Assembly (NCBI GenBank): GCA_024137785.1 | Contig: JAHRHZ010000003.1 | Coordinates: 6,696,657-6,760,656 of the forward strand | DNA length: 64,000 nucleotides | Reading direction: 5' to 3' | DNA from: Ginglymostoma cirratum | Lineage: Eukaryota | Shown here: positions 5,773-61,763 of the stretch, piece by piece | How the letters are laid out: each line of letters opens with the position of its first letter | Position numbering within the stretch: position 1 is the stretch's first letter | Position numbers and translations under genes: made by a program | The notes under the pieces: generated by a model | The model's input: the letters and a program-made list of their open reading frames with translations, nothing else | Told to the model about the DNA's origin: nothing | Database searches by the model: none

Positions 5773-6000
5773 TCAGCTCCAGCGAAACGGTAGCTGTCGC
5801 AGCCTCTCCCCGCCCTCCTTCACCAGCGGCTTGTGGTATTCGCGACCAGCCTGGGAATGGATGCTCGTCCAGCAGTAGTCACAGTAGTACTGCAGGCAGG
5901 TGATGTTGGCGCAGAAGAAAGGGGCAAATTTGCCGTTGCAGTGGGCGCCCTGGCATTCGTCGCACAGCTGGTCCACCAAGACGTACGGCTTCACCTCCAC
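5773..6000 (-). CDS. CPEB2/3/4-like: CPEB final coding exon (ZZ-type zinc finger, ends ...PFRWS*)
   Basis: ccag acceptor at 6001-6002; VEVKPY...CDEC...C...C..C....C..CW..IH...H pattern; TGA at 5773-5775. Confidence 0.97.
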   Translation of the reverse strand: MEVKPYVLVDQLCDECQGAHCNGKFAPFFCANITCLQYYCDYCWTSIHSQAGREYHKPLVKEGGERLRQLPFRWS

Positions 6001-7121
6001 CTGGCCAGTGAGAGAAAGCAGAGGGAGTCAGCAGTGTCTCTTCTCACCCACTGTTTCTCACCCTACCTGAACATCCCTTCGACTGAAAACACCACCTCTG
6101 GTCATTACTGTTTTGAGAGAAAGAGGGAAAAAAAAAGAATGGCGACAGGACGTGGCATCTCCAGTTGCACTCGAGAAGGTAACGTTAAGTTTCCTTCTGG
6201 AATGCAAGGACAAGGCACCTCATTTAAGGGGATCAAACATTACGTGCGGGTCAGACAGGTTAAGGATGGCACTTCCCTCTCTCTTATGAAAGCAACAGTG
6301 AATCAAATGGATATTTTTACGACAACCTAGATCATTTCAAAGTCACCATTACCATGCTTTTGTCATTGCTTTCAATTCACTCGTGGGACACGGGGTCATC
6401 GCTAGCTCAGCCAACATTTATTGCCCATCCCTTGCTGCCCTGGAGATGGCGGTGGTGGGATGCCTTCTTGAGTAGCTGCAGTCCTTGGGGTGAGAGAACA
6501 CCCAAAGTGCTGTCAGGGAGAACGTTCTGTGATTTTGACCCAGTGACAGGAAAGGTACGACGATATGTTTCCAAGCTAGAGTGGTGCATGGCCTGGAAGG
6601 GAACTTATAAGGCAGTGGTGTTCCCATGTATCTGCTGCCCTTTTCCGTCCAGGTTGAAGTGGTCATGGGTTTGGAAGATGGTATCTAAGGAGCTTCAGTG
6701 AAAGAAAAAATCAATCATGTTGGCCCATAAAATGAACCAGGTTGTCATAAGAATGGTCATGAGATCATGTTTTAACTTCCAATTCCAAATTTATTTACTG
6801 CAAAGTCGCAGCTGGTGTAGTAAGATTTAACATTTTGTCTCATTACCCCTACTTCAAGCCTCTGGATTAAGGTTTGAGTTCAGGTCTCACCCTGAGGTTT
6901 GAGTGTGTAATATTAAGGCTGAAAGTCAACTCAGGGACAGGACTGAGGGAGCACTGCACTGCCAGAGGTGCTGGCTTTCAGTGGAGACATTAAACTGAGG
7001 TCCCAATAGCCTCATTGGGTGAATATTAAACATCCGACAGTACCATTTCAAAAAGAAAGCCTGGTCACCTTTCCAACATCCATCCCTCAATCAGCACTGC
7101 AAAAATACACTATTTTGTCAT

Positions 7122-7418
7122 TGTTCATGATATGCATGAACGCCAGCAGCACAGGAATGTTAGCCTGCGATCTGACATAACTAAATTAAAATCACTCCAA
7201 GGAGGCAGGTATGCCATCACCAAGTCACCCTTTCTTTACATATGGTTAGTACATGGGCTCTGATCAGCCAGCTCAGAGCCAGACCCTACACTGAGGAGAC
7301 CTTCTGAATCTCTTGTTCATATCAGTCAGCCAGGGCTCCCTGATTGGGGCTGTTAACTTGGACCAATCAGGGAACTCATATTCAGTGGATCCACCTGGAC
7401 CTGGTTCCAATCACTACA
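7122..7418 (-). mobile_element. Possible solo LTR
   Basis: TG...CA termini (tgttcatg...atcactaca), internal CCAAT boxes, interrupts a SINE remnant; no clean target-site duplication seen. Confidence 0.35.
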
Positions 7419-9034
7419 TACCTTGTGCACATCTGAGCCTGTAGAGTGATCTCCTCCTAATCTGACCCTAGCACAGGACTATTCCAACAGCAATCACTCA
7501 ATGGACACTTTGCCTGATTGCTCCACTCGAACCAGCGAAGATGAGAAATCATGGTGAATGCAAGACTCTCCACAAGGTGAGCAAGAGTACAGCTGGCCAT
7601 GATCAGAACATCAAATATTTTGCCACACAAATTATTCAACCAGATGGAATGGATGGACATGGTCAACACACATTGCTGTGCATAAAAATCGTAAGTTTTT
7701 GCTGCGGAAATACTTCTGGCCGCAAATCAGTTTCCTTTCCGGTGTTTTCCTTCTGATTTCAACACATGACTGTCCTCGTACACAAACTGGGGCTGCACCG
7801 GTTGCTGCAGCTAGTCAAAAATTAATTCCTCAAGACACAAGGACCTAATCAGAGGCTGCACTAAAAAGGTACCCACCAGAGGGCAGTCTGTACCAGCAAA
7901 GAACCGACAGGTGCCAAATGCTTGTGCTCATTCTAACTGACATTTCTTTCACATACGTAACTCCTTATCTAGACTCTCAAAATTTCAGGGTCCTTCAATA
8001 TAGGGCTCCAGTGAAGTGTAGGCAAACAGCAACCATTATGATCACAGTCGCAACCAACCATCAAGGGGAAAATTGCCTGAGTTTGACCTATTTTCTTCTT
8101 AAAAATGGAGCCTGAGGCATTCACACCTCCCATGTTTTCAAATCCATACACACTGTCTTTACCAAACGCCATAACCTGTGAATCAGCATCTTGATAGAAG
8201 TACAAGTCACCACAGAAGATTAGCCTGTGCTCTCTACTGCCCTCACATGGCAGCCTGCACAGGATGCTAAGATTCTGGACCTGCCCTGGAAATCTCAATC
8301 CTTTTGGCTTTGAAGACTAAGGAATTGGTCACAGAACCAGGCTGATGGAGAGTGGAGGGCCAGAGAAAAATTATTGTGTGGAAGCAGGTCACCATACGGA
8401 TAGGTTCTTAAGCTGCGTTGTGATTCAGGAGTTTAACAACAGCTGCAACTTGACCAACACTTCTATCTCACCCACCAAAATAAGACAATCGTTTGTTTTG
8501 CAAACTGACCAATTTGGGAACTATCCGAGAAACCAGCAGGGCTGAAGGAGGCCATTCAACCCATCATGTCTGTGCCAGCTCTTTGGCAGAGACATCCAGT
8601 TAATCTCAGTCACACAGTCTCAGCTCACAACCCTGCCACTTCTACCTACTTGAAGTTTAAATCCTATCCACTTTTGAACAATGTAATTTCAACTTGCTTG
8701 TGCCATGCACTCAGCCAGAGCAAAGGGAATTATACTGAGCCTGCGTCAAAGCAGCTACGTCACAGTCGGTTCAGATCACATGCAAACAGTGTGTGGGTTT
8801 GTCAGGCTCCAGATAGGATATCCAATCTTACCATCTGTTTTCAATAAAGCTTGCCGCTGTTGTCTCAGAAAAAATGTGAATCTCACCCTGCTACTTTAGC
8901 ACCTCGTCTTGATCTGTCACTATACTGCTCAGTTGCTCACTACCCACATTTTCAACTGGATCATTGGTCAAGGCAGAAGCCAATGGTGACAAATTAAAAA
9001 TGGACTAATTTAGTACCTCTGCTGTAGACTTTGC

Positions 9035-9370
9035 AGCAAGGTGGATCAGTGGTGAGCACTGCTGCCTCACAGCATCAGGGACCCAGGTTCAATTCCACCC
9101 TCAAGCGACTGTCTGTGTGGAGTCTGCACATTCTCCCCATGTCGGCGTGGGTTTCCTCTGGATACTCCGGTTTCCTCCCACAGTCGGATTAGGTGGATTG
9201 GCCATACTAAATTGCCCATAGTGCCTAGGGATGTGCAGGCTAGGTGGGTCAGCCATGGAACATATGGGGTTACAGGGATAGGGTAAGGGAATGGATCTGG
9301 CCGGGATGCTGTTCAGAGGGTCAGTATGGACTTGATTGCCTGAATGGCCTGATTCCACACTACAGGGAAG
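9035..9370 (+). mobile_element. tRNA-derived HE1/V-SINE-like element
   Basis: A-box/B-box-like head (cagtggtgagcact...ggttcaattcc) followed by the tgtgtggagt..gcacattctcccc..gtgggtttcctc core. Confidence 0.8.
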
Positions 9371-9831
9371 CTACGAATTTATGATTGGCTTGAAGAGAAA
9401 AGTCCTCATCGCCCCATCTGGATTTTTCCACCGCACAGTGGAAACTGTTCCCCTAGCCCCCCTTTCCCCATTATTTTCTCTGTCAGCCCATATGCCATTC
9501 AATTGAGTTCCGATCTAGCCTCATAGGAACATAATTGATCTAGTATTTCAAACAGTAATAGAGGGATTCCATGCAATTCGGATCAATATTAAGTCGGTAA
9601 AGGATAAAAATCAGTCAAGGATTCAGATCACAAATTAAAAAAAGGCAGATTTTAGCAGGCTAAAGATTGAATTGCAGCAGGTTGATTGTAAATGCCTTCT
9701 GGTAGATAAAACAGTGGATGGAAAATAGGAGACTTCTAAAAGAGAGATGAATAAATAACAACAATAGAAATCAGGAAGAGTATCTCAAATCCAGGCCAGA
9801 AGCAAAGGCTAAAATAAGGAAGGCTAAGATG

Positions 9832-12612
9832 CGTATAGGAGTTGGGAAGTCATGCTGAGGTTTTACAGGACGTTGGTGAGGCCCCTTCTGGAGTACTGTG
9901 TCCAGTTCTGGTCACTGAGTTATAGGAAGGATATTATTAAGCTAGAGAGGATTCAGAAGAGATTTACCAGAATGTTGCTGGGTATAGAAGGTTCGAGTTA
10001 TAAAGAAAGGCTGGATAGGTGGGATTTTTTTCATTGTAGCGTAGGAGGTTGAGAGTTGACCTTAAAGATGTTTATAAAATCATGAAGGGTATAGATAGCA
10101 TTACTGGTAGGTGTCGTTGAGGAAAGGACGGCAAAGATGATTCTGGATAGGAGCGAAAGTAACAGGGTAGTTGTTATGGGGGACTAACTTTCCAAATATT
10201 GACTGGAAACGCTATAGTTCGAGTACTTTAGATGGGTCAGTTTTTGTCCAGTGCGTGCAGGAGGGTTTCCTGACACAGTATGTAGATAGACCAACAAGAG
10301 GCGAGGCAACATTGGATTTGGTACTCGGTAATGAACCAGGCCAGGTGTTAGAATTGGAGGTAGGTGAGCACTTCGGTGATAGTGACCACAATTCGGTTAC
10401 GTTTACTTTAGCGATGGACTTTAGGAGGGACCTAAAAAGAGAGCTAAGAATAGCCAGGAGGGGACATGAGAAGTCTTTGGTGGGTAGGATCAAGGAAAAC
10501 CCTAAAGCTTTCTATAGGTATGTCAGGAACAAAAGAATGACGAGAGTAAGATTAGGGCCAGTCAAGGACAGTAGTGGGAAGTTGTGCGTGGAGTCCGAAG
10601 AGATAGGAGAGGCGCTAAATGAATATTTTTCGTCAGTATTCACACATGAAAAAGACAATGTTGTTGAGGAGAATGCTGAGATACAGGCTATTAGACTAGA
10701 CAGGATTGAGGTTCATAAGGAGGAGGTGTTAGCAATTCTGGAAAGTGTGAAAATAGATAAGTCCCCTGTGCCGGATGGGATTTATCCTAGGATTCTCTGG
10801 GAAGCTAGGGAGGAGATTGCAGAGCCTTTGGCTTTGATTTTTATGTCGTCATTGTCTACAGGAATAGTGCCAGAAGACTGGAAGATAGCAAATGTTGTCC
10901 CCTTGTTCAAGAAGGGGAGTAGAGACAACCCTGGTAATTATAGACCAGTGAGCCTTACTTCGGTTGTGGGTAAAGAGTTGGAAAGGATTATAAGAGATCG
11001 GATTTATAATCATCTAGAAAGGAATAATTTGATTAGGGATAGTCAACACGGTTTTGTGAAGGGTAGGTCGTGCCTCACAAATCCTATTGAGTTCTTTGAG
11101 AAGGTGACCAAATAGGTGGATGAGGGTAAAGCGGCTGATGTGGTGTATATGGATTTCAGTAAAGCGTTTGATAAGGTTCCCCACGGCAGGCTATTGCAGA
11201 AAATACGGAGGCATGGGATTGAGGGTGATTTAGCAGTTTGGATCAGAAATTGGCTAGCTGTAAGAAGACAGAGAGGGTGGTGGTTGATGGGAAATGTTCA
11301 TTCTGGAGTTCAGTTACTAGTGGTGTACTGCAAGGATCTGTTTAGGGGCCACTGCTGTTTGTCATTTTTATAAATGACCTGGATGAGGGCGTAGAAGGAT
11401 GGGTTAGTAAATTTGCGGATGACACTAAAGTCGGTGGAGTTGTGGATAGTGCGGAAAGACGTTGCAGGTTACAGAGGGACATAGATAAACTGCAGAGCTG
11501 GGCTGAGAGGTGGCAAATGGAGTTTAATGCGGAAAAGTGTGAGGTGATTCACTTTGGAAGGAGTAACAGGAATACAGAGTACAGGCCTAATGGTAAGATT
11601 CTTGGTAGCGTGGACGAGCAGAGAGATCTTGGTGGCCATGTGCATAAATCCCTGACAGTTGCCACCCAGGTTGATAGGAAGGCGTACGGTGTGTTAGGTT
11701 TTTTTGGTAGAGGGATTGAGTTTCGGAGCCGTGAGGTCATGTTGCAGCTGTACAAAACTCTGGTGCGGCCGCACTTGGAGTATTGCATGCAGTTCTGGTC
11801 GCCGCATTATAGGAAGGATGCGGAAGCATTGGAAAGAGTGCACAGGAGATTTACCAGGATGTTGCCTGGTATGGCAGGAAGGTCTTATGCGGAAAGGCTG
11901 AGGGACTTGAGTCTGCTTTCGTTCGAGAGAAGGTTAAGAGGTGACTTAATAAAGACATACACGATGATCAGAGGATTAGATAAGGTGGATGGTGAGAGCC
12001 TTTTTCCTCGGATGGTGACAGCTAGCATGAGGGGACATAGCTTTAAATTGAGGGGTGATAGATATAGGATAGATGTCAGAGGTAGGTTCTTTACTCAGAG
12101 AGTAGTAAAGGTGTGGAATGCCCTGCCTGCAACAGTAGTAGACTCGCCAACTTTAAGGGCATTTAAATGGTCATTGGATAAACATATGGATGATAATGGA
12201 ATAGTGTAGGTTAGATGGGCTTCAGATTGGTTTCACAGGTCGGCGCAACATCGAGGACCGAAGGGCCTGTACTGTGCTGTAATGTACTATGTTCTATGTT
12301 CTATGTTCTAGGATAGGGGATTTTAATACTACAGGGCATATTTTTAAGGCGAGGGGAGAGAGATTTAATAAAAGACATGAGGGGCAAATTTTATTACACA
12401 GACGGTGGCGCGGGTGTGGAACGAACTTCCTGAGGAAGTGGTGGATGCGGGCACAGCTAACAACATTTAAAAGACATGTGGATAAGTACATGAGTAGGAA
12501 AGCTTTGAAGGGATATGGGCCAGGAGGAGGCAGATGGGATGAGTTCAGTTTGGAATTATGTTCAGCACCGATGGGTTGGACTGAAGGGCATGTTTCAATG
12601 CTCTCTGACTCT
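9832..12612 (+). mobile_element. CR1 3' fragment split by the younger LINE (9832-10115 and 12311-12612)
   Basis: LVRPLLEYCVQFWS ORF at 9852; the same kind of CR1 3' sequence resumes after the inner element's tail. Confidence 0.8.
10116..12310 (+). mobile_element. Young 5'-truncated CR1-type LINE (end of endonuclease plus reverse transcriptase; disrupted)
   Basis: ORFs 10171-11115, 11116-11373 and 11442-12209 carry SDHN, PGNYRPVSLTS, QHGF, DFSKAFDKV and RPHLEYC motifs; FADD is encoded at ~11412; premature TAG at 11113 and a frameshift; 3' (TTCTATG)n tail at ~12285-12310. Confidence 0.95.
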
Positions 12613-14679: not shown

Positions 14680-14861
14680 CCGTTTGTCGATGTCCCGATG
14701 TTGTAGCTGGAGGAAGCGAGCACTGATTGCCGCAATGTAGCTCTGTTGATTGGCAAATGCCACCCTGCCTGCTCCTTTTGGGTATTTCAGCTCAGGATCA
14801 GTGTCAATGCCAGCATAGCAAACTCCTCCATACAGCTGGTCCATGATCATGGCCAGCTCCA
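14680..14861 (-). CDS. CPEB2/3/4-like: CPEB coding exon 7 (182 nt; VELAMIMDQLYGGVCYAGIDTDPELKYPKGAGRVAF...DIDKR, RRM2)
   Basis: ctgttgcag acceptor and CGG|gtaaga donor; close match to CPEB2-4 RRM2. Confidence 0.97.
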
Positions 14862-16029: not shown

Positions 16030-16510
16030 TATAGTCATAACAGGACAGAAACAGACCCTTAAGTCCAACCAGTCCACACCGACCATGATTTCAAACTAAA
16101 CTAGTCCCCACCTGCCTGTGGTTGGTCCATATCCCTCCAAATATTTCTTTGCATCTGCTTACCTAAATGTCTTTTAAATGTTGAAACTGTACCCGCATCC
16201 ACTACTTCCTCTGGAAGATCATTCCACACATGAACCACTGTGTAAACAAATTGCCCCCATGTCTTTTTTGAATCTTTGTCCTCTCACCTTAGAAACAAGC
16301 CCTCTAGTCTTGAAACCCAACAACCTAGGGAAAAGACACCTGCCACTGGCCTTATCTATACCCTTCATAATTTAATCAACCTCTGTAAGATCACCTCTCA
16401 ACCTCTTACGCTCCAGTGGAAAAAGTCCCAGCCTATCCAGCCTCGCCTTATAAATCAAACGCTCTATTCCTGGCAAATCTCTTCTGAACCCTCTCCAGCT
16501 TAATCATATA
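16030..16510 (-). mobile_element. CR1 3' end fragment
   Basis: Reverse-complement similarity to 12311-12612 and 17230-17480. Confidence 0.7.
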
Positions 16511-17229
16511 ATTAATAATATCCCTTCCATAACATTACACTCTGGATAAAGGTGTTTCCCAATTAGATTTACTCCTAACTACCATATTTATGGTTCTTGG
16601 TTTTGGTTTCTGTTACAACTGGAAATGCCTTTGCTATGACTACTTGAACAAACCATTTTAAAATCTTCAAGACCTTTCTCAGGTCACCCATCAGGCTTCT
16701 CCTTTCTGGCAAAATGAATTTGTTCAATCTTTCGAGGTTCTAACCTCGCAATTCCATCTTCATTATTGCCAATTTTTTTGCACCTTGTCTAATACCTTCT
16801 TGGAATACGGACATGCGCATAGTACTTCAGGTGTTTTCGATCAAAGATTCTACACAAGTTTGATACACCTTTGCTGCCTTTTAATCCCATACCTTAAAAA
16901 ATGAACCCCCAACAAATCAGTATGCAATTTTGCTGATGGCACACATGGCCTCCTACTAGAGTTACAGGGTACTCTGTTTTATACTTGTTGACTGTATCAA
17001 TGCCATTACAAAATGCAATAGCCAAGGTGGTCTTGAAATAGGAAACAGAATTAGGTTCAAGACATTATTTAGCTACAGACTTAGCAGTTAATAAGCTGAT
17101 AGACAGTGTTTTACAGGAACTACGCTATTTATGGCTGATGTGTATAACATTGTAAAGACCCCATCATTTCATAAATATGGTAGTTAGGAGTAAATCTAAT
17201 TGGGAAACATCTTTATCCAGAGTATAATG

Positions 17230-17480
17230 TTATGGAAGGGATATTATTAATTATATGATTAAGCTGGAGAGGGTTCAGAAGAGATTTACCAGGATGTAGC
17301 CAGGAATGGAGGGTTTGATCTATAAGGTGAGGCTGGATAGGCTGGGACTTTTTCCACTGGAGCGTAAGAGGTTGAGAGGTGATCTTACAGAGGTTGATTA
17401 AATTATGAAGGGTATAGATAAGGCCAATGGCAGGTGTCTTTTCCCTAGGTTGTTGGGTTTCAAGACTAGTTTTAAGTGTA
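17230..17480 (+). mobile_element. CR1 3' fragment
   Basis: gttcagaagagatttaccaggatg...ataggctgggacttttt, similar to 9930-10115. Confidence 0.7.
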
Positions 17481-19133: not shown

Positions 19134-19248
19134 CAGCTTTCAGGGGTCTTGGTACCCCTCCCACAAAGACGGTCTTCCTGGGATCTAGAGGCTGTGAGCC
19201 ATCCAGCACAAAGTCGCTGTCACTCAGACTCCAGGGTCTGATCTGCAC
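19134..19248 (-). CDS. CPEB2/3/4-like: CPEB coding exon 6 (115 nt; VQIRPWSLSDSDFVLDGSQPLDPRKTVFVGGVPRPLKA)
   Basis: ttctggcttcag acceptor and G|gtaagt donor; RRM1-RRM2 linker and RRM2 RNP2. Confidence 0.96.
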
Positions 19249-22684: not shown

Positions 22685-22803
22685 CGGCTTGTCCTTGACT
22701 GTGCGGCTAGAGACGCACAAATAGAGTTTACCATCATCCTGAAAGCAGGCATCAATCAGAACCTGAACTGAACACTCCTCCTGAAACAACAAGAAGGCGT
22801 AAC
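22685..22803 (-). CDS. CPEB2/3/4-like: CPEB coding exon 5 (119 nt; GYAFLLFQEECSVQVLIDACFQDDGKLYLCVSSRTVKDKP)
   Basis: ttttgcag acceptor and CCG|gtgagt donor; RNP1 motif GYAFLLF. Confidence 0.96.
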
Positions 22804-24398: not shown

Positions 24399-24488
24399 CT
24401 TTGGGTGGAAAGTAGGATTTACTTCCCGACTTGTGAGGCCAGTCTACCATGAGCTGTCCAAAACAGCAGAAAGTAGCGATTATCTCAT
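24399..24488 (-). CDS. CPEB2/3/4-like: CPEB coding exon 4 (90 nt; DEIIATFCCFGQLMVDWPHKSGSKSYFPPKG, RRM1)
   Basis: Not in the ORF track; translated by hand. tttctgtttag acceptor and G|gtgagc donor; VDWPHK..SKSYFPPKG signature. Confidence 0.95.
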
Positions 24489-25670: not shown

Positions 25671-25684
25671 CAGCATTTCTTTAT

Positions 25685-28430: not shown

Positions 28431-28598
28431 CTTCGTCGATGTCTGGTGGCAAACCGCCAACGAAAACCTTTCGGGAATATCGTTCTCCTGATTTCCCATT
28501 CTGGCTGAGAGCTGGGGAGTTCAAGCCTGAAGATAAAGATTGGTCACCCTGGCTATTGTCAAGGAAGCCGTCTTCAACAGGAAACAAAGCTGATCGAC
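28431..28598 (-). CDS. CPEB2/3/4-like: CPEB coding exon 3 (168 nt; GRSALFPVEDGFLD...RYSRKVFVGGLPPDIDE, start of RRM1)
   Basis: ctgcag acceptor and G|gtgagt donor; RNP2 motif VFVGGLP. Confidence 0.96.
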
Positions 28599-31500
28599 CT
28601 GCAGCATAAGAGAGATGGGCAGCTATTGAACTTCACCCAGATTGTTCAGCATGAAATCCTTTGACTCCCGGTTAAATAATGCCTCAAATTACTTAGCCAT
28701 TAAGTCCCTCCCTCACCTGCTTTCCCCCTGCCTCAGTAACCTACATCCACAATACTATTGAGATAAGAACATAAGAAATATAAGCAGGAGTAGACCATTT
28801 AGCACCTCCAATCACGACTGATTTGCCCCTTCTTTTGTGCCAGCTCTTCCTACTTCTGAACTCCTCAATATTTCAAAAATCTATGCTCCATTAATTCTGG
28901 CTTTTACTTTACTTTCAAACCTTCCACCACTGGCAGAAATATCATGACCTGCTAAGGCCTGAAGCTTTGAAATCCCCTCCTTAAACTTTTCCTCTGTCTG
29001 CTCCTTAAATCTGTTATCTTCCATCACGCTTCTGGCTACCTTCCCCAAGAGTTTGGGGGGGGGTGGAAAAAAAACTAAAGATCATTTTCTGTCCAGAAGA
29101 TTAAGGGTGAGACCAAATAGAAGGAAGGAAAACAAGTGTTTTTTTAAAAAAATGATACAGACTACGTAAGGAGGAACCATTCCCTTTCAAATTGATTGTT
29201 CAAAAGGTCGGTGTCTAAAACCAGTGGACGTGGTCTCAAAATAAGAGGCCATTTAGGACTGAGATGAGGAGTTCATATTTCATGAATATTTGGAATTCTT
29301 CACTATAAAGGGTTGTGGAAGCTTAATCATCAAGGAAATTCAAGGCAGGGGTTGATACGTTTCTAGACAAAATGGCACATGTGTGGTTTCACAGATTCAT
29401 TGGCCTGTTCACGCTGCTATTTTTCCATATTCCGGAGATCACAGAACAGGAACAGCGAGGAAATTAGGACTGTTTTTATTTAAATCATCAAAACAGATGC
29501 CAGGATCACGTGATGCGATCAGGTTCCACGGGAACTCTTAGACGGCAACTGAAATGTGCGCTTGGAAACATGAATAATCTTCTGGACCCCAGAAGCAGCT
29601 GAGGTACAGATCTAAATTGAGCAGGCTTTTTTAAGAAAGAGAAACAGATTCAGTTGACTGGATGGATTCTGTCCTCAACATCATATTTTGCAATAAGGAC
29701 GGCCACAACTGGCCTGACAGAACAGATTTCCCAGGCCACTGTATGACTTTGGGAGAGTAAAGTGCCACTTCAAAGAGATGAGAGTATTGGCAGGGAAACT
29801 GTTCCTTGTTGAGCAGAAGTTCAGGTTGACCAACTAACTGGCAGCATTCAGAGGAAACGTCGCAAAGTTATAACGTTATATAATCATACACTACATGGAA
29901 CGTATTAAACATTATTATACTGGCTCGAGGTTCGAGAACCAGACCTTCACTGTCTGAGGATAGGGTATCAGCTCTGCAGGGCTGAAAAGATTGGAAATTT
30001 CTACAGTCGGAGGGTCATCAATCAATGGAATTCTTTACCCCGAAGAGTTGCAGATGTGAAATAAAGCCAGATGGATTTTGAATATCAACAGATATGGCAC
30101 ATAGGTGCAACTAAGGTAGAAAAATCAAACATGATCTTACTGAATACAGACTCAAAGGATCAAATAGCCTCCTCTAGGTATTATTTCTTAAAGGTGAAAA
30201 TATTGCAGTAATGGGGAAGAGAGGAAATTCTGCTTATTCATTGAGAACCCTAAACGCAAGACTGTTATTTCAGCTGAGATTTTCATCATTAGGCATTGGG
30301 GTCAGACCAGTCTTGGTGCGTTATGTTTGATTTGGTCATCGAGCGATGAAACAGATGCAGATTCTGAAACAAAAGTTACCTAATCCCTCAGACGGAAGCA
30401 AATGATTGATCCCTCCCTTGTTTGTGTGCTGTGTGCTGTGTGCTGTCAAACAGCTGCTTGTGGCAGGTTGAGAACAGCCATCAGGAACTTGGAACACTGC
30501 CCAGTGGTCTCCAGTCCTATTTGTTAAATAACTGGGCCACAGCTTCTCCAGCAGACTGGGCTGCGTCTCCCCTCCTCAAACCAGGGCAGAGCCATAAATT
30601 TTTAAACATGTGAAATGAGCAGTACAGCAGTCTCCCCCACCCACAGTGAAACCATCTACTGTCTAACATTGCTGCAGTGCTCTGTCAGACAATCAGGAGG
30701 CAGTCTCCTAGATTGCTCAATGGCAAGCTGATGTTTCTGCAGTTCACTGATTCCAAACAAACAAACTTTGCATCACACAAGAAGTGCCATTTGATTATCA
30801 TGTCAGTACCAGCTCCGGACCCGATCAAATCAAACCAAATCCCACGACGCTGAATCTACCATTGCTGGAACATTTCTAAGTAACCAAATAGCCTCCTTGA
30901 TTCTTTGGCTCTGCAGTAGTTGCAGATTCCTATCAGGCCGTCTAAAATCCAACCTGCATTTGAACTCAATTTAGCTGCGGCTAACTAGTACCACCCTACA
31001 CTCTCAAGTCAGAAAAGCTGTGGGTTCAAATCCCTCTCCAGAAACTTCAACATACGAAAGGGAGACTGGCAGTCCACTAGGACTAAAGAGTCCGAGAATC
31101 GGTTTTGGGCTGAGACTTTAAACTGAGGACCCCATCTCATGTGAAGTAAAAGTTCCTATGGACACTACTGAAGATAAGTCAGGTAGATCTCTTAAGGTCA
31201 AAGCAACCCTTTATGACAAAATCATTACATTTCCAGAATATTTATCATTTACTATTAAGTCGTTGCGGAGCATGGAGACCATATTTTTTTCCAGGACATT
31301 GTCCATAAATTCTGTTGGGACCTTGTTTGATTGTGCAAGCTACTCCATAAACTCCAGTTAATCGTTAACTGCCATCCTCTTTTCCCCAACTTGTTGCCCT
31401 GTTGTAAGCTTATAGCCAGATGTATAAACTGCTAATACATATTCTAGATTGTCAGTGCACGCTGTTCGCTGTACCATGATCTTCCCCCATTTCACAAGAC

Positions 31501-31848
31501 CAAACCCAACACTGCTAAGGTAAAGACATAATCACAATCAGATCACTGGTTGATAGTGGGATCTTGCTGTGCACACTTTGCTGCACTCATCACTTCAAGA
31601 ATCTTATGGGAAATATTGCGAGGATGTGAAAGGCATTATGCAACTGCAGTTATTTCTTTGTATGCATGCACCACTCTTCTTTCATAATTCCTGCATGTGG
31701 CACCCATTACCTCACTGAGAGACTCATGCAAATGCACACCAGTTCAGCAGACCCATGAAAATCACATGGAAATGACCACATGAACAAAGTACCGGCCCAA
31801 CTATTCAATGGGGGAAAATACACAAGCCAAGATGGCCACGAGACTCAC

Positions 31849-31939
31849 CCTTGAGTGGTTCCTGTTCGTTCTGTAAGATGTCAATCAGGGAGTTCTCCAG
31901 TGAGTGCATGTTGAAAGTATCATATGGGTGCGTCCATTC
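31849..31939 (-). CDS. CPEB2/3/4-like: CPEB coding exon 2 (91 nt; EWTHPYDTFNMHSLENSLIDILQNEQEPLK, NES-like helix)
   Basis: ttttcctttgcag acceptor and G|gtgagt donor; matches the conserved MHSLENSLIDI block. Confidence 0.93.
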
Positions 31940-45155: not shown

Positions 45156-45875
45156 CTGATGGTGAGGCAGCCAGTTGCTGTTGCCATCTGTCCTCAATGG
45201 GTTCTCTTCCATCCAGGATTTCAAAGCCGATGCCGGGCGGCCCCTGTTTAGTTTTGGAGGCACCATCATGTGGCTGGAATAGGACCTCTTGGAGGAGCAG
45301 GAAGGAATGGAGTGCGAGATGCCCATTACTCCAGTTGATCTTCTCAGTCCCCTCCCACAGTTATTGCTGACACTGCCCCAGCCTCCGCTTCCTCCTCCAC
45401 TCTGCTGTTGGTGGCTGCCCCAGCTCAGAGCCCTGAAGGTTTGCTGCTGCGGGCTGTAGCTGTTCCTTTGGGAGGCGTTAGAGGAGGAGGAAGAGGTGGT
45501 GGTGCCTTGGTGAGGATGGTGGCCGAGAGGCGATCTCCTGTGCTGCTGGGCCAGCCCCATCTGCTGCACCGAGGGGAAAGTCCCTCCAAAGAGAGGTCCC
45601 AGGTGCACCATCTTCGGTAACAACATGGCAGTTGGCAGGACTCCTTGCTGGAGTAGGTTTTCCTCGCTGGTCTGGCTAGTGGACCATCCTAGAGTGTTAA
45701 CTGTCGAAGTGCTTCCTCCTTGATCTTGCAGAACCAAACTGGCCGGGGCAGCTAGACAGTCGAGCTGGGAGGAGGACCCATCCCCATTGTTGACCTCAGG
45801 ACTTTTCAAGGACTCCAGGTTTTGCTCCAGGTAGGGACAGCAAATTGACTGCCTTTTAGAGTCATTCTGGAGCAT
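45156..45875 (-). CDS. CPEB2/3/4-like: CPEB2/3/4-subfamily protein, coding exon 1 (low-complexity N-terminal region, 240 aa)
   Basis: ATG at 45875 (MLQNDSKRQS...). Contains CPEB2-4-like motifs WST, PLFGGTF, QHRRSP and PPKLNR...KSWMEENPLRTD. Phase-0 donor CAG|gtaaaa at 45155. The start codon is inferred; an upstream in-frame ATG exists at 46109. Confidence 0.85.
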
Positions 45876-45979
45876 GTCTGGATTGGCAAAGTGTGTGTGT
45901 GTGGGGGGGGAGGTTTTTCTCTCTCTCTCTCTTCTTGCTTGAGGAAGGGGTGCAGAGGGAATAACAACTGGCAAAAAGA

Positions 45980-47100
45980 AAGAAAGTGTTGGTCGTGGCG
46001 TGGGATGTCGATCCCAGCCTAGCCTTGCCCTGCCCTGCCCAGTCACCAACCCAGCGGAGCGATGTTGAAACAGCTGAGACGTCCCAGTCTCCCAACTAGA
46101 AATGCACATAAAGAGTGGCCGGGGAGTAGGGGTGTTGGAAAGAAATAAATAAAACGCGTCCGTACCAACCAATGCAACGAAAACGAAAGGAGACGAACCG
46201 CGACAGAAATGCGATCACCACCAGTTTTTGTTTTGTGTGTATGTGTCTCTGTGTACGTGTGTGCTTTTCTGCCTCCTCCTTAGTTCCTCATCGATCGCGT
46301 CAAAATGGAATAAGCAAGATCACAAGATACTGTTTAATGACCTGCTCATCGCCTCTTTACTCCGGAACTGAAGCTCTGACACTCCGAAGCATTCTGGTTG
46401 CTCCAGATTTTTTTTTCCTCCCCTTCCCTTACTCTCTATTTTTCCACTTTTTGAAGAACTGGAAAAAAAATCCTGCACCTGACCTGCGCAGGCAATTTTG
46501 GCCCATTTTCGTGTTGTCTCGGACCCCACCCCCAAAGTCCAGCCCCTCTCTCTCTCCCTCCCCGTCCCCCTTTTTTATATTCATGGTGAAATTTGCCCCA
46601 GCTTCTTTCTCGAATGCCTTCCCCATCATTCTCTTGAACCGAATGTTTTCTCAAGGCAAATTCCGGAGTTTTACATTGGTCTAAGGCGCCCATGTAGTTT
46701 TTATTTTCTCTTTCGCTTCCCCCTGTCCAAATTCCTACTCCCAATCTCTCAGATACTGCAAAGTGTCGGTTCTGGGGGGGGGTCTCATAAGGAAGGATGC
46801 GTGGAATTTTGAAGCGTCTCCGCGATGAGACAGCCGCGTCTTGTGTTCCCTGAGCTTGCAACGCAGGCCTTTCGGCCCACCAGATCTATGCTGTCGCATC
46901 CGCTTTTCTCCCGTTTGCCTACCGCACAGCCTTCTCGCAAAAAGTACAGCTTTCTGCGGGTGCTGTAAACTTCAAATATAAGCAGAAGGTGCCTGAAAAG
47001 ACTCAACACCCACCCCTATCAACGCATGTTATGAGAAACTAGCCCCTCCAAAACGGGGTTCCCCGACCGTCTGAGCATTCCCAGTATTTCCTGTCTTATC
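45980..47100. promoter_or_regulatory. CpG-rich promoter / 5'UTR region of the CPEB gene
   Basis: CpG density visibly higher than flanks (cgcg, atcgatcgcg, ccgcg), immediately 5' of coding exon 1. Confidence 0.65.
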
Positions 47101-48118
47101 CTTTTCGACATGACCTTCAGCCTATTTGTGTGTGTTTTTGTTTTTGCTTTGCGTCTTTGCAAAACTTACAACCTCAAATGCGTCAATGTCATTCACCTCA
47201 ACCACTCCCCGTGGTCGTCAACTTCATTCTCAGAGCGCTTTGTCTCTTTTTCAGAAAAAAAGGCCAATTTGTTTTTGTCTGTTTTGTTCCTTCCCCCATT
47301 GACCACTGTATGAGTGTCATTGAAAAGTTGTATTCTTGCATTTATTGCAGTAATGCATTCACCTTTGAAAGATGCACTAACTTGGCAGTTTTTTTTTGTC
47401 ACAGTCACAAATTCGAATATAAGGCGCTTTTGAAACAGGCCCCCTCCCCACTAGCACCCATGCAAATTCTCAAGAAGCAGGAATGGAGATAAACGTGAAC
47501 AGTGTTGTCATGTTCTTCCCTAGTATTTCCTTCAGATGGGTGAATCTGAACTTGTGGTTCACAGGTGGCAGTTATTGTGAGATTACAATATTGGGGTCCA
47601 AGGGTGAGTTGCAAACAATGCATCCTCGGGGGCAAACCAATGAAAGGAAGAAAGCCAAGTGTCCCTGATGGTCATTCTTTGTGATTGCTTGCACTCAAGG
47701 AGTGGCTACATTGGAAGGGATGGAAGGAGAGGGAATGTGCTAGAGTAAGGTTGATGACATGCTATCCAAGGTCCAACAGGTTGTCATCCTACAGCCCTCA
47801 CCTTGAACTTGTTGTACGCAACTGCGTTGTGTGGCATTGGACCCTGGTCAGTGCCAGCAGTTTCCTTTCACAGCTACACAGCTTCTCCACTGCACCAATG
47901 CAGGATAATGGTTCAATCCTAATGCTCCTGACCTCAATGGTGACCTCCTCCTACTGACTGACTCTACCTCCTCCTCTGAAACTATTCATGAACCCCAGTC
48001 TTCCATCCTGCTTGGTATTTTTTTTAACAGAAAGAACTCAAATAAAAATAAATGAGCTGCTGAATTTTGTCAAGTGGTTATCCTGCAGAATCTTTGGAAT
48101 ATCTCCTAACTCCTAAAC

Positions 48119-57381: not shown

Positions 57382-57465
57382 TTTATTAAATTCAACTTAC
57401 TGAGAAGCCTAATTTTATTCAATCTTTGTTATTAGAAGTAGCTTTGCATAAACAGGCTATTTATT
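57382..57465 (-). terminator. Cluster of three AATAAA signals ending the MARCHF5-like 3'UTR
   Basis: tttatt on + at 57382, 57414 and 57460, about 0.9 kb past the stop codon. Confidence 0.55.
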
Positions 57466-58342
57466 TGGGCTGCCACAGCAGGGAAAACAGAAAATTCTAT
57501 TAAAAATAAATATTTCCTGTGGGTTTAGAAAAAAAACACTAAACTATCCAACTTTTAAATATACTTTTATAAAATTAAGTCACTTATTTTGATATGCTTG
57601 TTTCAGCCACATGCAAGAGCATAAAAGTTCCCTCTGTGGGGCAGAAGCTTGTGAAACTCCACTGAATGCCAAGCTTAACTTGTCACTACATTTCCTTCTT
57701 CCTTGTGGCCTGAAATATCACAGGACCTGGCAAAAGAATTTTTAGTCTGCACTAAAAGTTGCCAAGAATCTAATTTGCTTACAAGGTCCACAGAGATCAC
57801 TTCAGATCCCACCCATGTTTCTGATACTCTATGTCGATCTCTTTTATAATCTGCACAGCCAGGCGTTTCTTACCGACCCGAGATTGAGTGCTTTCTCCTC
57901 TCGAGCAAATGCCATGAGAATGCTGTTCAACATACAGGTTCTCCCAGCTTTCAGACAGACACCGAGGGGGCACAATTAGAACTCTGCATCCTACAATCAG
58001 AGAAATCACACCCTGCCAAGTCACGGTGTCGCACGTCCACGGCAAGTCTCAACCAAGGCACTGCTCGAGACCTTGGCCGCTCGCAGGAAAGTGCTGAGGA
58101 GTTTGAAATATGGATAAAAACGTAGTAAAAGAGATTAAACAATGTAATACCAATTAAAAAACGAGCAGAGATATTCAGTCCATGTCTAAAAAGAAACCAG
58201 TGGGACCGGAACAACTGGGGCTGGATTCGAGGTCAGCTCTCCGGAAGCACGGTGACGTCCCAGAGTGCCAATTCCATTAGGGGCTGAAGTGAAAACAGTC
58301 TATCTCAGCTCACACCTGTTCAAATCTCAGCAAATCACCACT

Positions 58343-58501
58343 TTAGTCACTTCCAGAGTCCTCGTAGCCTGCCTGGAGTTCTTCCTGGTCATCTTCTTGC
58401 TCAGGGTAGTTGAGAATCCGGCGGTTTGCTTGGATCAGATATTGCTGTTGTCTGAAGTAAACCTTTAAGGCCCCTTTGATGGCAATGAAGGCAATCCCGC
58501 C
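58343..58501 (-). CDS. MARCHF5: MARCHF5-like final coding exon (GGIAFIAIKGALKVYFRQQQYLIQANRRILNYPEQEDDQEELQAGYEDSGSD*)
   Basis: Not in the ORF track; translated by hand. cttgtttag acceptor; TAA at 58343-58345; matches the MARCH5 C-terminal TM segment and ILNYPE motif. Confidence 0.93.
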   Translation of the reverse strand, partial: GGIAFIAIKGALKVYFRQQQYLIQANRRILNYPEQEDDQEELQAGYEDSGSD

Positions 58502-59419
58502 CTAAACAAGGAAGGGTGGGAGAGAGAGACATACACACAGAAAGTGACTCTTAATGCACAGCAAGATAACTGCAAAGTGCCATGGATCCATAACGCTTAT
58601 TCTAGTCATTTTCAGCCCGACTGTCCTTGCTTTACAACGCCATTCATATATACACCAGCAACTCGAATTTCACAAGACAGGAGACAGCCATTTGTACTCT
58701 CTCAATGATCTGTCCATATCCCATTATACTGGCTTTCCCCACTGTTTTACCCATTTTGTTGAACAACTTTCCACAGCACTGTAATATTTGGATTCAGCAT
58801 TCTGTTGCTATCACTGACTCATCATTTCAACTCCTGACAATTTTCATCCAACCTCCTCCTTCACTGTTCTATTGATAGCCTCCCAATTACCAAGCTGCTC
58901 CTCAGTGAAAGCAGTTTACCCGCCCCTTTGCAAACCTCAACAAAACCACTCAATTCGCTTCACTCCAATTCAAAATTCTTTGGTTGAAACCATCCATCAT
59001 CAATGAGACAGCTTAAGCCCATGCAACATTGGTTTATTTCTTAACAAATATAAGAAAACCATTGGCACAAGTATACAGAGCCTTGTGTCGGTCTTACAGA
59101 ATTCACTTTGGATTATTCTCAAATTAACCTCGGTTGAATTTACAGTGGTTCAGACTGGACACTTCCTCTATCAGTGTAAGACTTTCAAAGAGAACACAAA
59201 ATCTTGATTTTCCTGATTTGCTTTTCCCCTCCAAGCGTTTGCTATGAACACAACACGAGCCCCTTGATCAGAAACCTCTGATCTTGCCCCAAGACAGGAG
59301 ACGATTGCAATGGGATTACACTGTAAGAGTATTGAAATTTAACTGCAATTATCCAAAGGCTTTGCTGACAATATACCCACTGACTTACACAGTTGCCCAA
59401 GAGGACTGCAACCAATGCA

Positions 59420-59700
59420 GAGTGGTTGGAGGGCATAGTTTTTAAGTGAGAGAAGGATTTAAAAGGTACCTGATGGGGCAATCTTTTCCCAAAAAGGCTG
59501 GTTCATATACGGAATGAACTGCCAGAGGAAATGGTAGAGGCAGGTACAGTTACAAAATTTAAAAGACATTTGGACAGGTACATGAATAAGGAAGGTTTAG
59601 AAGCATATGGGCCAAATGCAGGTAAACGGGACTGGTTTAGTTTGAGAAACTTGGTCAGCATGAATGAGTCGAACCGAAGGGTCTGTTTCTACGGGTGGCT
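59420..59700 (+). mobile_element. CR1 3' fragment in a MARCHF5-like intron
   Basis: VEAGTVTKFKRHLDRYMN peptide typical of CR1 ORF2 C-termini. Confidence 0.75.
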
Positions 59701-60325
59701 TATAAGATCTGAACAGTATGAAACTATATTCTCTTGACTTGAGGTGATATCATCGAAATATATGAAGATTGTAAAGAGCTTGACAGGACAGGTTGTGCGA
59801 ACTTGTATACGCCCTTTTGGAGAACTTTCCACATTGACAGGGCATGAGTTATTTTGTTAGTGAACAGAGAAGCCAAGAGGTGAATGACCAGCTCATCTAC
59901 TTTTGACAGTGTCCAACGTGGAACGAATGGCAAGTGAGGGAACCAGATACACCCCTTCCAACAATATCACGAGATCAATGGAATGGAAAATCGAGTCGTA
60001 ACCATGGTTTTAGCTCTTAACCTGAAGGACAGGACAAGCCACAATATGCTTCACGTTCAGCATCAGCTTAGAAAATGTACTCAAGCTGGGCTTGAATGAT
60101 GCACATCTATAATAAAGATATACCAAGATGAGTTATGTTTGCATTGAGGAAATGCAAAGCCTTAAAGTCAGCCTCACTCAAGATGATGAGCCAAAGCAGT
60201 GCATGATCCAGAACAAACAAAGACCAATGCTGCAAGTGAAACTGAGTCCCAGCACAAGTCAATGCATTCGGCACAGTTGGGGGGGGCGGGGGGTGGAATT
60301 CAAGGACATGGGTATGGATACTCAC

Positions 60326-60492
60326 CAAGATAGTTCGCTGGAGATTGGAGTGCACACCACTGAACAGGAGCTTGCCAACCATGCTGGAGATTGTGGGGAA
60401 CACAAGGGCACCACACAAGATGCGGGAGACGGACATGTGGTCACTCTGATAGCTCGTCTCAGCTGGTACTCGAGGAATGGGGCATCCTAAAC
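60326..60492 (-). CDS. MARCHF5: MARCHF5-like penultimate exon (167 nt; GLGCPIPRVPAE...SRILCGALVFPTISSMVGKLLFSGVHSNLQRTIL)
   Basis: atgcag acceptor and TTG|gtgagt donor; phase-consistent with both neighbouring exons. Confidence 0.93.
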
Positions 60493-61579
60493 CTGCATAA
60501 TGTTGAAGCATCAACACAACCTGAATAATGCACAAAATGAAGGTGCTGCATGCACACCCAGTCAAACTGCTAGTGCAAGGATGACTTCATTGTTCATTTC
60601 TCAATGCAGCCTGAAACAACTAAAAATGACACCAATCAGGTCCTGGCAGCATCTGTGGAGAGAAAACTATGTTAACGTTTCAATTTCAGTGATGCTTATT
60701 CCAGATGTTTTCTCCTTACAGATGCTGTCAGAGCTGCTGAGTTCCTCCAGCAATTTCTGTTTTTGTTTCAGATCTCCAGCATCTGCAGTTCTTCGTTTTA
60801 TCTATCAGGTCCTCTCCAGCATTTACCAATTCATCATTTTCAATTGTACCACTCAAACAAGAGAGAAGATGGACAATCGCAGCAAAAGGTGGACACACAA
60901 TGTGGTTAGAAAACATCAAATGCCATGCAGAAACGGGAGAGATGGTGTCAGAAATACCATGAGAACAAGAGACTCCAAGATTGAAGAGTGGATGAGACTA
61001 ATGGAAATACTGGGAGGTTAAAAGAAAGAAAAGACAGTGACACAAGATACACAGTTGTCTGAAACATCCCAAGACTCTTTACAGGAACATTGTGTTTGCC
61101 AATTTGTACAAGGCCACTTAAGGAGATCATAAAGCATCTGGAATAAAGAGGTCAATTTTAAGAAGGTTCTCAAAAGAGGAGGGACAGGTTAGCAAGGCGG
61201 AAAGATAATGTCAGAGCTGAGAACCAAGTCAGCAGTCGGCACTACCATCAATCGATTAAAATTAGGGATCAGGTGGCCAGGATTAGATCACTGCAGAGAT
61301 CTTGGAGAGTTGCAGAGTTGGAGGAGGTACACAAATTGGGAGTTGGAAGGCTATGCAGAGATATGAAAATGAACAAAAGAATTTAGTTTTGGTATGACAT
61401 CACATCTGACGTGCATCAGCCAAAACAGATGTCATTAATGCAAAAACAGCTGGTTATCAATGAGCATTTTCCATCCATGAGAAACGAGCAGATGATATAA
61501 CCATTTCAAATCTCGGATTCCTGTCTATGGTGACAATTCACAGCGAACAGTGATTCATAGGCTTAGCCTGCAGTCTCAC

Positions 61580-61763
61580 CTGGGAAAATGTTACTGAGAA
61601 CCTGCAGCTTGCTGGAGTATTTTCGCCACATGCGAAGCACAAAGTCCTCCCACCGGATCATCTTGGCCAGAATAAGCATCACAGGAATGGTGGGCAGGCC
61701 CATCAGCAGGAACAGTGGGTCTGCCCGCTCCATTAGGTCCAAACCTTTCTTGTGTCCGACAAC
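61580..61763 (-). CDS. MARCHF5: MARCHF5-like E3 ubiquitin ligase, internal exon (184 nt; VVGHKKGLDLMERADPLFLLMGLPTIPVMLILAKMIRWED...); earlier exons lie beyond the window
   Basis: tctgcag acceptor and G|gtgaga donor; close match to the MARCH5 ERADPLFLLIGLPTIPVMLILGKMIRWED segment. Confidence 0.93.

What the first reader, a model, noticed from the sequence alone, without database searches (positions are those of the whole stretch)
5773..61763. Divergent CPEB2-4-like gene linked in tandem to a MARCHF5-like gene: candidate fourth CPEB ohnolog
Seen: a complete CPEB gene and a MARCHF5-like gene, both on the minus strand, tail-to-head, about 11 kb apart. Known: human CPEB3 and MARCHF5 are head-to-head neighbours, and CPEB2/3/4 are whole-genome-duplication paralogs with nearly identical RRM/ZZ regions. 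This protein mixes paralog features (PYDTFN and FRWS like CPEB3, MHSLENSLIDI like CPEB2) and departs from all three. Inference: this is not orthodox CPEB3-MARCHF5 but a paralogous pair, i.e. the copy absent from mammals (I recall a fish-restricted 'CPEB5' being proposed), retained intact here.
Basis: partly seen in the sequence, partly recalled or inferred. Interest (0 to 1): 0.75.

Follow-up and report, generated by a model that had tools for sequence, protein, structure and literature searches.

The report
Fourth CPEB2-type gene kept in sharks
This shark DNA holds an intact extra copy of a translation-controlling RNA-binding gene (CPEB), most likely the fourth sibling of CPEB2, 3 and 4 made by the ancient vertebrate genome doublings, so far seen only in sharks and rays and unusually changed in a domain that otherwise barely varies.

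Summary
Confirmed and strengthened. The window (carpet-shark-like) holds an intact 8-exon, 570-aa CPEB gene and, 12.5 kb upstream on the same strand, the last three exons of a MARCHF5-like gene. Orthologs in four other elasmobranchs (NCBI 'CPEB2-like') form a fourth clade beside CPEB2, 3 and 4 (100/100). The skate ortholog sits on a 15,576,883-bp chromosome, Leri_35C, which a published table assigns to the 1-beta copy of linkage group I/Q; skate Cpeb2, Cpeb4 and canonical March5 lie on the other three copies. It thus fills the empty 2R slot, as sister of CPEB3, with which it shares a linker length. The MARCHF5 duplication predates the shark/bony-fish split (AU p=4e-6). 21 of 23 CPEB4 RNA-contact or RRM-positioning residues are kept, yet 27 of 237 otherwise invariant C-terminal positions changed; S/T-P sites fell to 2-5 (10-17 in paralogs); no microexon was found. 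Likely a CPE-binding translational regulator with altered control (inferred). Protein trees alone cannot name its sister; absence from bony vertebrates is weakly tested; 'CPEB5' was not found in print. New member of a known family.

The parts
45156..45875 (-). CPEB coding exon 1 (aa 1-240; disordered N-terminal region, ATG at 45875)
   Evidence: Open frame, GT donor; 87/65/63/61% identity to four elasmobranch orthologs that start at the same Met; pLDDT under 50 in the ortholog's model
31849..31939 (-). CPEB coding exon 2 (PYDTFN...SLENSLIDIL helix)
   Evidence: AG/GT sites; helix 253-268 in the ortholog's model
28431..28598 (-). CPEB coding exon 3 (linker with the CPEB3-type 9-residue spacing; start of RRM1)
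24399..24488 (-). CPEB coding exon 4 (RRM1; carries the RR-to-CC and AE-to-SG changes)
22685..22803 (-). CPEB coding exon 5 (RRM1; the two changed RNA contacts, E-to-D at 379 and I-to-V at 392)
19134..19248 (-). CPEB coding exon 6 (inter-RRM linker, start of RRM2)
14680..14861 (-). CPEB coding exon 7 (RRM2)
5773..6000 (-). CPEB coding exon 8 (ZZ zinc finger, stop codon)
872..5772 (-). Probable long 3' UTR of CPEB (about 4.9 kb if the distal ATTAAA 929 / AATAAA 877 is used; earlier signals at 4233, 2197, 1863)
   Evidence: Motif scan only; no transcript evidence
46001..47500 (.). CpG-rich stretch just above the CPEB ATG, probable own promoter / 5' UTR
   Evidence: CpG observed/expected 0.60-0.84 in five successive 500-base windows against a window median of 0.295; nine other windows also reach 0.6; inference
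61580..61763 (-). MARCHF5-like internal coding exon (first one inside the window)
   Evidence: 100% to Stegostoma and Rhincodon MARCHF5-like, 84% to canonical MARCHF5
60326..60492 (-). MARCHF5-like penultimate coding exon
58343..58501 (-). MARCHF5-like last coding exon with stop (acidic tail absent from canonical MARCHF5)
57382..57465 (-). Cluster of three AATAAA signals, probable 3' end of MARCHF5-like
   Evidence: motif only

Best explanation
The gene is the fourth whole-genome-duplication copy of the CPEB2/3/4 subfamily: the 1-beta copy, made at the second duplication as sister of CPEB3 (1-alpha), and kept with the 1-beta copy of MARCHF5 on the chromosome homologous to chicken 22. A local inversion in one of the two copies changed the pair's relative orientation (inferred; rests on the recalled human arrangement). 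After the duplication the CPEB changed fast, then froze before sharks and rays split. It most likely still works as a CPE-binding translational regulator: tandem RRMs clamp a U-rich 3' UTR element, the ZZ finger is intact, and the disordered N-terminus recruits repressing or activating machinery (inferred from the family). Its control probably differs, since most proline-directed phosphosites are gone and the alternative B-region and microexon were not found. Shown: gene model, clade, residue conservation, chromosome of the skate orthologs. Inferred: sisterhood with CPEB3, RNA binding, altered regulation, loss in bony vertebrates.
For: (1) Four elasmobranch orthologs with full open frames. (2) Full-length tree, 16 rows, 530 columns: new clade 100/100, CPEB3 99/95, CPEB2 100/99, CPEB4 100/99, joined in a star; AU rejects grouping with chondrichthyan CPEB3 (p=0.015), catshark CPEB3 alone (p=0.003) and chimaera CPEB4 (p=0.004). 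(3) MARCHF5 tree, 19 rows: like-type (sharks, skate, chimaera, coelacanth, lungfish) against canonical (sharks, coelacanth, bony fish, tetrapods) 100/100; chondrichthyan monophyly rejected, p=4e-6. (4) Skate CPEB ortholog P0002 and MARCHF5-like P0125 both report a contig of 15,576,883 bp, the end coordinate of Leri_35C. PMC10115646 SI Table 3 gives LER15 1-alpha (=GGA6), LER35 1-beta (=GGA22), LER1 2-alpha, LER11 2-beta (=GGA13); SI Table 10 places March5-1 on 15C, March5-2 on 35C, Cpeb2 on 1C, Cpeb4-3 on 11C. (5) Linker between SP and ERY/F is 9 residues in the new clade and CPEB3, 11-12 in CPEB2/4, 12-14 in invertebrate-type rows; of 298 scored columns 3 unite it only with CPEB3, 1 only with CPEB4, 0 only with CPEB2. 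(6) 21 of 23 CPEB4 residues named for RNA contact or RRM positioning in PMC4083092 are identical, 2 conservative; Pfam RRM_7, RRM_1, CEBP_ZZ above cut-off, AlphaFold model and Foldseek best match CPEB4 RRM12, on ortholog P0001. (7) S/T-P sites before RRM1: 2-5 in five clade members, 10-17 in six paralog rows.
Against: Protein trees do not identify the sister: the branch joining it to CPEB3 has support 49/0, and grouping with all CPEB2 (p=0.44) or all CPEB4 (p=0.44) is not rejected. On the C-terminal 382 columns alone, grouping with chondrichthyan CPEB3 was not rejected (p=0.077; CPEB2 0.18, CPEB4 0.31), and a long invertebrate-type branch joined the clade weakly. No chondrichthyan CPEB2 sequence was in any tree, and only 2-3 CPEB2 and 3-4 CPEB4 rows, most unnamed and classed by motif. 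The chromosome assignment is for skate, through a match of contig length; the supplement (cut when stored) showed no row for skate Cpeb3 or for a CPEB on 35C, and adjacency of the two skate genes was not shown. The stingray and electric-ray orthologs lie on very large contigs (215 and 376 Mb), which needs later fusions. No expression data. Part of the S/T-P drop follows from a shorter, proline-poorer N-terminus: counts in the clade equal shuffled expectation.
Confidence: 0.9

Rival explanations
1. A chondrichthyan-specific duplicate of CPEB3 that moved next to the old MARCHF5-like gene and evolved fast.
For: Found only in elasmobranchs; shares linker length and a few residues with CPEB3; best N-terminal match is catshark CPEB3 for 4 of 5 clade members; not rejected on C-terminal columns (p=0.077).
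Against: Rejected on the full-length alignment (p=0.015). It keeps MHSLE.SLIDI where shark and bony-vertebrate CPEB3 share LHSLE.SLMD. It would need a chance landing beside the paralog of CPEB3's own neighbour, on the paralogous chromosome.
Confidence: 0.04
2. A segmental duplication of the CPEB3-MARCHF5 block before jawed vertebrates split, independent of whole-genome duplication.
For: The trees date the MARCHF5 split only as older than the gnathostome crown; only two genes are in the window.
Against: The copy lies on the chromosome independently assigned as the 2R partner of the canonical March5 chromosome.
Confidence: 0.03
3. It is the true CPEB2 (as NCBI's 'CPEB2-like' label suggests) or CPEB4, fast-evolving in elasmobranchs.
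For: NCBI names; AU does not reject grouping with CPEB2 or CPEB4 as whole clades; no chondrichthyan CPEB2 in the trees; for skate P0002 the best N-terminal match was a CPEB2 row.
Against: Skate has Cpeb2 on Leri_1C and Cpeb4 on Leri_11C, apart from Leri_35C; PMC11965684 Table S1 lists five accessions for Amblyraja radiata under the five heads CPEB1-4 and TIA1; 0 of 298 columns unite it only with CPEB2.
Confidence: 0.02
4. A decaying, non-functional copy whose divergence reflects relaxed selection.
For: C-terminal domain only 84-86% identical to paralogs that are 95-99% identical to one another; fewer phosphosites, no alternative exons found.
Against: Open frames in five species; C-terminal domain 98.1% identical between this shark and a stingray; changes avoid RNA-contact and zinc-ligand positions.
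Confidence: 0.01

Closest known systems
CPEB3 (gnathostome; 1-alpha copy, neighbour of MARCHF5)
   Same: Domain order; 86% identity over the 259-residue C-terminal domain; 9-residue linker spacing, EPLK, C-terminal RWS; linkage to a MARCHF5 (coelacanth CPEB3 and MARCH5 both report a 149,881,728-bp contig).
   Different: Separate clade; shorter N-terminus with 4 against 10-17 S/T-P sites; no B-region, microexon or CPEB3-specific 23-aa insert detected; tandem orientation to its MARCHF5; no CPEB3 ribozyme or other Rfam match.
CPEB2 and CPEB4 (2-alpha and 2-beta copies)
   Same: RRM1-RRM2-ZZ; MHSLE.SLIDI; 21 of 23 CPEB4 RNA-contact or positioning residues.
   Different: Other chromosomes in skate; longer linker; 84-85% C-terminal identity; many more S/T-P sites.
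MARCHF5 (mitochondrial RING-CH E3 ligase)
   Same: About 76-79% identity over some 155 aligned residues; RINGv domain in the full-length shark ortholog.
   Different: Distinct clade also held by chimaera, coelacanth and lungfish, with an acidic C-terminal extension. A second, 'fish-specific' MARCH5 copy in trout is in print (title seen in a reference list only); whether it is this copy was not tested.
Ohnologs kept in chondrichthyans and lost in bony vertebrates (PMC10115646: 68 differentially retained cases, 19 only in chondrichthyans; wnt6b, cspg5)
   Same: Same kind of history; beta segments are reported to lose more genes and evolve faster.
   Different: CPEB is not named in the passages read; the list of 68 was not in the supplement text held, so it may or may not include this gene.

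Membership tests
CPEB2/3/4 subfamily | Tandem CPEB-type RRMs plus ZZ finger at the C-terminus | tested here: met
   Pfam RRM_7, RRM_1, CEBP_ZZ on ortholog P0001; model and Foldseek; Cys/His positions invariant in 27 rows
CPEB2/3/4 subfamily | Closer to CPEB2-4 than to CPEB1 | tested here: met
   CPEB4 RRM12 397 bits against CPEB1 183 bits; 86% against 47-49% identity
CPEB2/3/4 subfamily | RNA-contact residues of the CPEB4-RNA complex | tested here: met
   21 of 23 identical, E131D and I144V
CPEB2/3/4 subfamily | Many proline-directed sites in the N-terminal region controlling phase separation | tested here: not met
   4 S/T-P in the window protein, 2-5 in the clade, against 10-17; 18 and 20 sites reported for Xenopus CPEB3 and CPEB2. 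A regulatory trait, not the phylogenetic definition
CPEB2/3/4 subfamily | Alternative B-region exon and 8-aa microexon between the helix exon and the linker exon | tested here: inconclusive
   None of 5 module queries scored above shuffles in intron 28599-31848 (p 0.12-0.92; control exon found); absent from 4 of 4 ortholog proteins seen. A diverged exon or another isoform could be missed
CPEB2/3/4 subfamily | miR-26/miR-92 site doublet near the poly(A) signal | tested here: not met
   Single seeds occur but the nearest pair is 228 nt apart; true 3' end unknown
CPEB2/3/4 subfamily | Binds CPEs, recruits CCR4-NOT, forms condensates | not testable with these tools
   Needs experiments
CPEB3 ortholog | Falls inside the gnathostome CPEB3 clade | tested here: not met
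   Outside CPEB3 (99/95); AU p=0.015 for grouping with chondrichthyan CPEB3; p=0.077 on C-terminal columns alone
CPEB2 ortholog | Is the CPEB2 locus on the 2-alpha chromosome | tested here: not met
   Skate Cpeb2 is on Leri_1C, this gene's ortholog on Leri_35C
2R ohnolog (1-beta, linkage group I/Q) | Lies on the fourth paralogous chromosome | tested here: met
   Skate ortholog on LER35 = 1-beta = GGA22; not confirmed for shark assemblies (searches found nothing)
2R ohnolog (1-beta, linkage group I/Q) | Duplication older than the chondrichthyan-osteichthyan split | tested here: met
   MARCHF5-like: AU p=4e-6. CPEB: outside all three gnathostome-wide clades, though no bony-fish member was found
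2R ohnolog (1-beta, linkage group I/Q) | Sister to the 1-alpha copy (CPEB3) in the gene tree | tested here: inconclusive
   Best tree has it, support 49/0; shared linker length and 3 columns
MARCHF5 canonical ortholog | Falls inside the canonical MARCHF5 clade | tested here: not met
   Like-type clade 100/100

The most novel reading that the evidence does not exclude
Sharks and rays keep a neofunctionalised fifth vertebrate CPEB, the lost twin of the memory-linked CPEB3, that still reads CPEs but has escaped the ERK/CDK1 multisite phosphoswitch and the neuronal microexon. It would be a kinase-insensitive CPEB (a standing repressor, or a soluble competitor) with a rebuilt, cysteine-bearing outer face of RRM1 that takes different partners or a redox or lipid modification: a natural experiment on how CPEB2-4 condensates are switched.
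Probability: 0.3. Interest if true: 0.72.

Novelty: new member of a known kind. Interest (0 to 1): 0.52.

Why it matters
Reviews state that vertebrates have four CPEBs, and a 571-species survey used only CPEB1-4. This locus completes the 2R quartet of the CPEB2 subfamily and shows that the 'CPEB2-like' label on these records misleads. The C-terminal domain is 95-99% identical among CPEB2/3/4 from shark to human, yet this copy fixed 27 changes at otherwise invariant positions while sparing the RNA contacts, which marks surfaces that can be rebuilt. Its loss of most S/T-P sites makes it a ready comparator for the phosphorylation-condensate model. Retention of extra ohnologs in cartilaginous fishes is a known pattern, which tempers the surprise.

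Tried and rejected
Mosaic or recombinant of CPEB2 and CPEB3: rejected, the 'CPEB2' motif is also in CPEB4 and no scored column unites it only with CPEB2. Upstream in-frame ATG at 46109: not adopted, four orthologs start at the 45875 Met. Rfam scan of the whole window: 0 matches. Alternative exons in intron 2: nothing above shuffles; the tblastn part failed on an option and intron 1 was not rescanned; a scan for frame-keeping small exons gave two overlapping candidates (31082/31076-31056) without support. miRNA seeds in the 5,772 bases below the stop: miR-92 3 (0.38 expected in base shuffles), miR-26 2 (0.54), let-7 2 (0.23), miR-30 1 (0.71), miR-9 0 (0.24); all seeds except miR-26 are recalled; too weak to count. 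First CPEB tree with five distant outgroups drew a long branch to the clade; seven rows were dropped, three. ESM Atlas: generic CPEB2/3/4 clusters only, no separate cluster shown, which shows neither novelty nor absence. Supplements of PMC11406177 and PMC10620051 held none of the shark contig lengths or gene names. The bacterial promoter scan is irrelevant to this DNA. The look-up of cluster members could not be made, so accession numbers and the species behind each cluster are open. Paper searches that found no description of this gene, judged from listings.


Full report
Observation. Six-frame motif scans and manual exon fitting give a CPEB gene on the minus strand with eight coding exons from 45875 to 5773, seven GT-AG introns, 570 residues and no internal stop. 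It agrees with an annotated bamboo-shark protein at 541 of 567 aligned residues. Upstream on the same strand are the last three coding exons of a MARCHF5-like gene (169 residues), identical to zebra-shark and whale-shark MARCHF5-like proteins over all 169; its RING exons are not in the window. The source is therefore a carpet shark or close kin (inference). The genes are tail-to-head, 12,468 bp from stop to ATG, with an AATAAA cluster at 57387-57465 and a CpG-rich stretch at about 46.0-47.5 kb between them, so the CPEB probably has its own promoter (inference).

Relatives. A search with exon 1 among proteins of 421-2000 residues found 4 proteins among 5277 candidates: Chiloscyllium, Leucoraja, Hypanus and Narcine, all named 'CPEB2-like'. 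A search with the C-terminal 348 residues of the Chiloscyllium protein ranked these four first (94-100%), then fell to about 80%, mostly CPEB3; 120 of 1645 hits were listed. The 150 best of 2572 hits among 50%-identity representatives added one near-copy of exon 1 and nothing else of this type. Seven diagnostic motifs occur together in the window protein and the four orthologs only, among all proteins fetched; two other rows carried one motif each. So the gene is seen in sharks, skates and rays only. Absence from chimaera and bony vertebrates is weakly tested: most hits were not listed, and a bony-fish ortholog need not share these residues.

Trees. On the full-length alignment (16 rows, 530 columns) the new clade, CPEB2, CPEB3 and CPEB4 are each strongly supported and meet in a star (inner support 49/0). 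Grouping the clade with chondrichthyan CPEB3 (p=0.015), catshark CPEB3 (p=0.003) or chimaera CPEB4 (p=0.004) is rejected; grouping with all CPEB2 or all CPEB4 is not (p=0.44 each). On linker plus C-terminal columns with outgroups nothing was rejected (p=0.077, 0.18, 0.31), and with more distant outgroups a long branch joined the clade. No chondrichthyan CPEB2 was available, and most CPEB2/4 rows were unnamed and classed by motif. MARCHF5 is clearer: 10 of the 120 listed hits (of 399) are like-type, and a 19-row tree splits like-type (sharks, skate, chimaera, coelacanth, lungfish) from canonical (sharks, coelacanth, ray-finned fish, tetrapods) at 100/100, rejecting chondrichthyan monophyly at p=4e-6. 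That duplication predates the jawed-vertebrate crown.

Synteny, the strongest evidence. The skate CPEB ortholog and skate MARCHF5-like both report a contig of 15,576,883 bp. In the little skate genome paper (PMC10115646; passages, part 1 of the supplementary workbook and searched rows seen; the workbook was cut when stored and one PDF was unreadable) that number is the end of Leri_35C. SI Table 3 assigns linkage group I/Q as LER15 (+LER34) 1-alpha = chicken 6, LER35 1-beta = chicken 22, LER1 2-alpha, LER11 2-beta = chicken 13. SI Table 10 places March5-1 on 15C, March5-2 on 35C, Cpeb2 on 1C and Cpeb4-3 on 11C (5 cpeb rows, 6 march5 rows; none for Cpeb3 or a CPEB on 35C). The window's gene thus fills the one empty slot, 1-beta, whose partner is the CPEB3 chromosome. 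In agreement, it shares with CPEB3 a 9-residue linker spacing against 11-12 in CPEB2/4 and 12-14 in invertebrate-type rows, and 3 of 298 scored columns unite it only with CPEB3, 1 only with CPEB4, 0 only with CPEB2. Shark orthologs of the two genes report contigs of 17-25 Mb, as expected of a small chromosome; the stingray and electric-ray CPEBs report 215 and 376 Mb, which needs later fusions.

Anatomy and likely working. Pfam, an AlphaFold model of the bamboo-shark ortholog (mean pLDDT 52.5, under 50 over most of the first 309 residues, mostly 70-94 over the RRMs and ZZ) and Foldseek give a disordered N-terminus, one helix at 253-268, RRM1, RRM2 and ZZ, best matching CPEB4 RRM12. Of 23 CPEB4 residues named for RNA contact or RRM positioning in PMC4083092 (passages seen), 21 are identical and two change conservatively; the ZZ cysteines and histidines are kept. 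Yet the 259-residue C-terminal domain is only 84-86% identical to CPEB2/3/4, which are 95-99% identical to each other, and 27 of 237 columns invariant in 13 paralog rows are changed in all four clade members compared (the skate row was left out for a 6-residue insertion). They include RR to CC at the end of RRM1 helix 1, away from the listed contacts. Within the clade the domain is 98.1% identical between this shark and a stingray, lineages that split about 286 million years ago (shark-skate date): a burst on the stem, then stasis (inference). CPEB2-4 are switched by many proline-directed phosphorylations that dissolve their condensates (PMC9465852, passages seen). The clade has 2-5 S/T-P sites before RRM1, no more than composition predicts, against 10-17 in six paralog rows, four of them enriched at p under 0.05. 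The B-region and microexon were not detected in intron 2. I judge CPE binding and translational control likely (about 0.85) and materially different regulation about even; neither was tested.

What is known. Ten paper searches found no description of this gene: 'CPEB5' occurs in one unrelated paper, 'march5l' in none; see also (listings only; one search located the genome papers). PMC12415542 (passages) and PMC11965684 (passages and parts of Table S1) count four vertebrate paralogs. PMC10284499 (passages) defines the CPEB1 and CPEB2 subfamilies. PMC2995058 (parts 2 and 3 of 7) describes a miR-26/miR-92 doublet that was not found here. PMC5526904 (passages) showed nothing on a second MARCH5; PMC7016824 gave only a reference title on a duplicated trout MARCH5. 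The library lacks most subscription papers, and the skate paper's list of 68 differentially retained ohnologs was not in the text held, so prior notice is not excluded. The proteins are already in NCBI under a misleading name.

Verdict. A real, intact gene; a new member of a known family; probability 0.9 that it is the 1-beta ohnolog and CPEB3's sister. Interest 0.52: it corrects a standard family count and offers a natural variant for the phosphoswitch model, but extra ohnologs in sharks are an expected class.

Noticed in passing
window 10171-12209 (+): Broken reverse-transcriptase frames of a non-LTR retroelement (Pfam RVT_1) in the last CPEB intron, antisense to the gene; related fragments recur at about 9.8-10.1, 16.0-17.5, 37.5-38.1 and 59.4-59.7 kb. 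The label CR1-like is recalled.
   Followed up: partly
window 62726-63001 and 63730-64000: Inverted pair, 278 bases at 91% identity, in a MARCHF5-like intron; looks like terminal inverted repeats of a DNA element, cut by the window end.
   Followed up: no
window 16304-16592 and 17170-17469: Inverted pair of 300 bases at 94% identity in a CPEB intron; could pair in the pre-mRNA.
   Followed up: no
window 3876-3899: Four telomere-type repeats (TTAGGG on the transcribed strand) inside the probable CPEB 3' UTR.
   Followed up: no
P0232 (coelacanth), P0226 (lungfish), P0127 (chimaera): The MARCHF5-like paralog survives in lobe-finned fishes and chimaera, where no CPEB of the new type was seen: the two neighbours may have been lost at different times.
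   Followed up: partly
window 31056-31087 (-): The best, non-significant match (p=0.12) to the CPEB3-specific 23-residue insert falls on a weak candidate small exon in intron 2; possibly chance, possibly a remnant.
   Followed up: partly
window 24399-24488 (-): A conserved di-arginine at the end of RRM1 helix 1 is replaced by two cysteines in all five clade members; unexplained.
   Followed up: no
P0002 (skate ortholog): This isoform has six extra residues at the exon 7/8 junction, suggesting an alternative acceptor at the end of RRM2.
   Followed up: no
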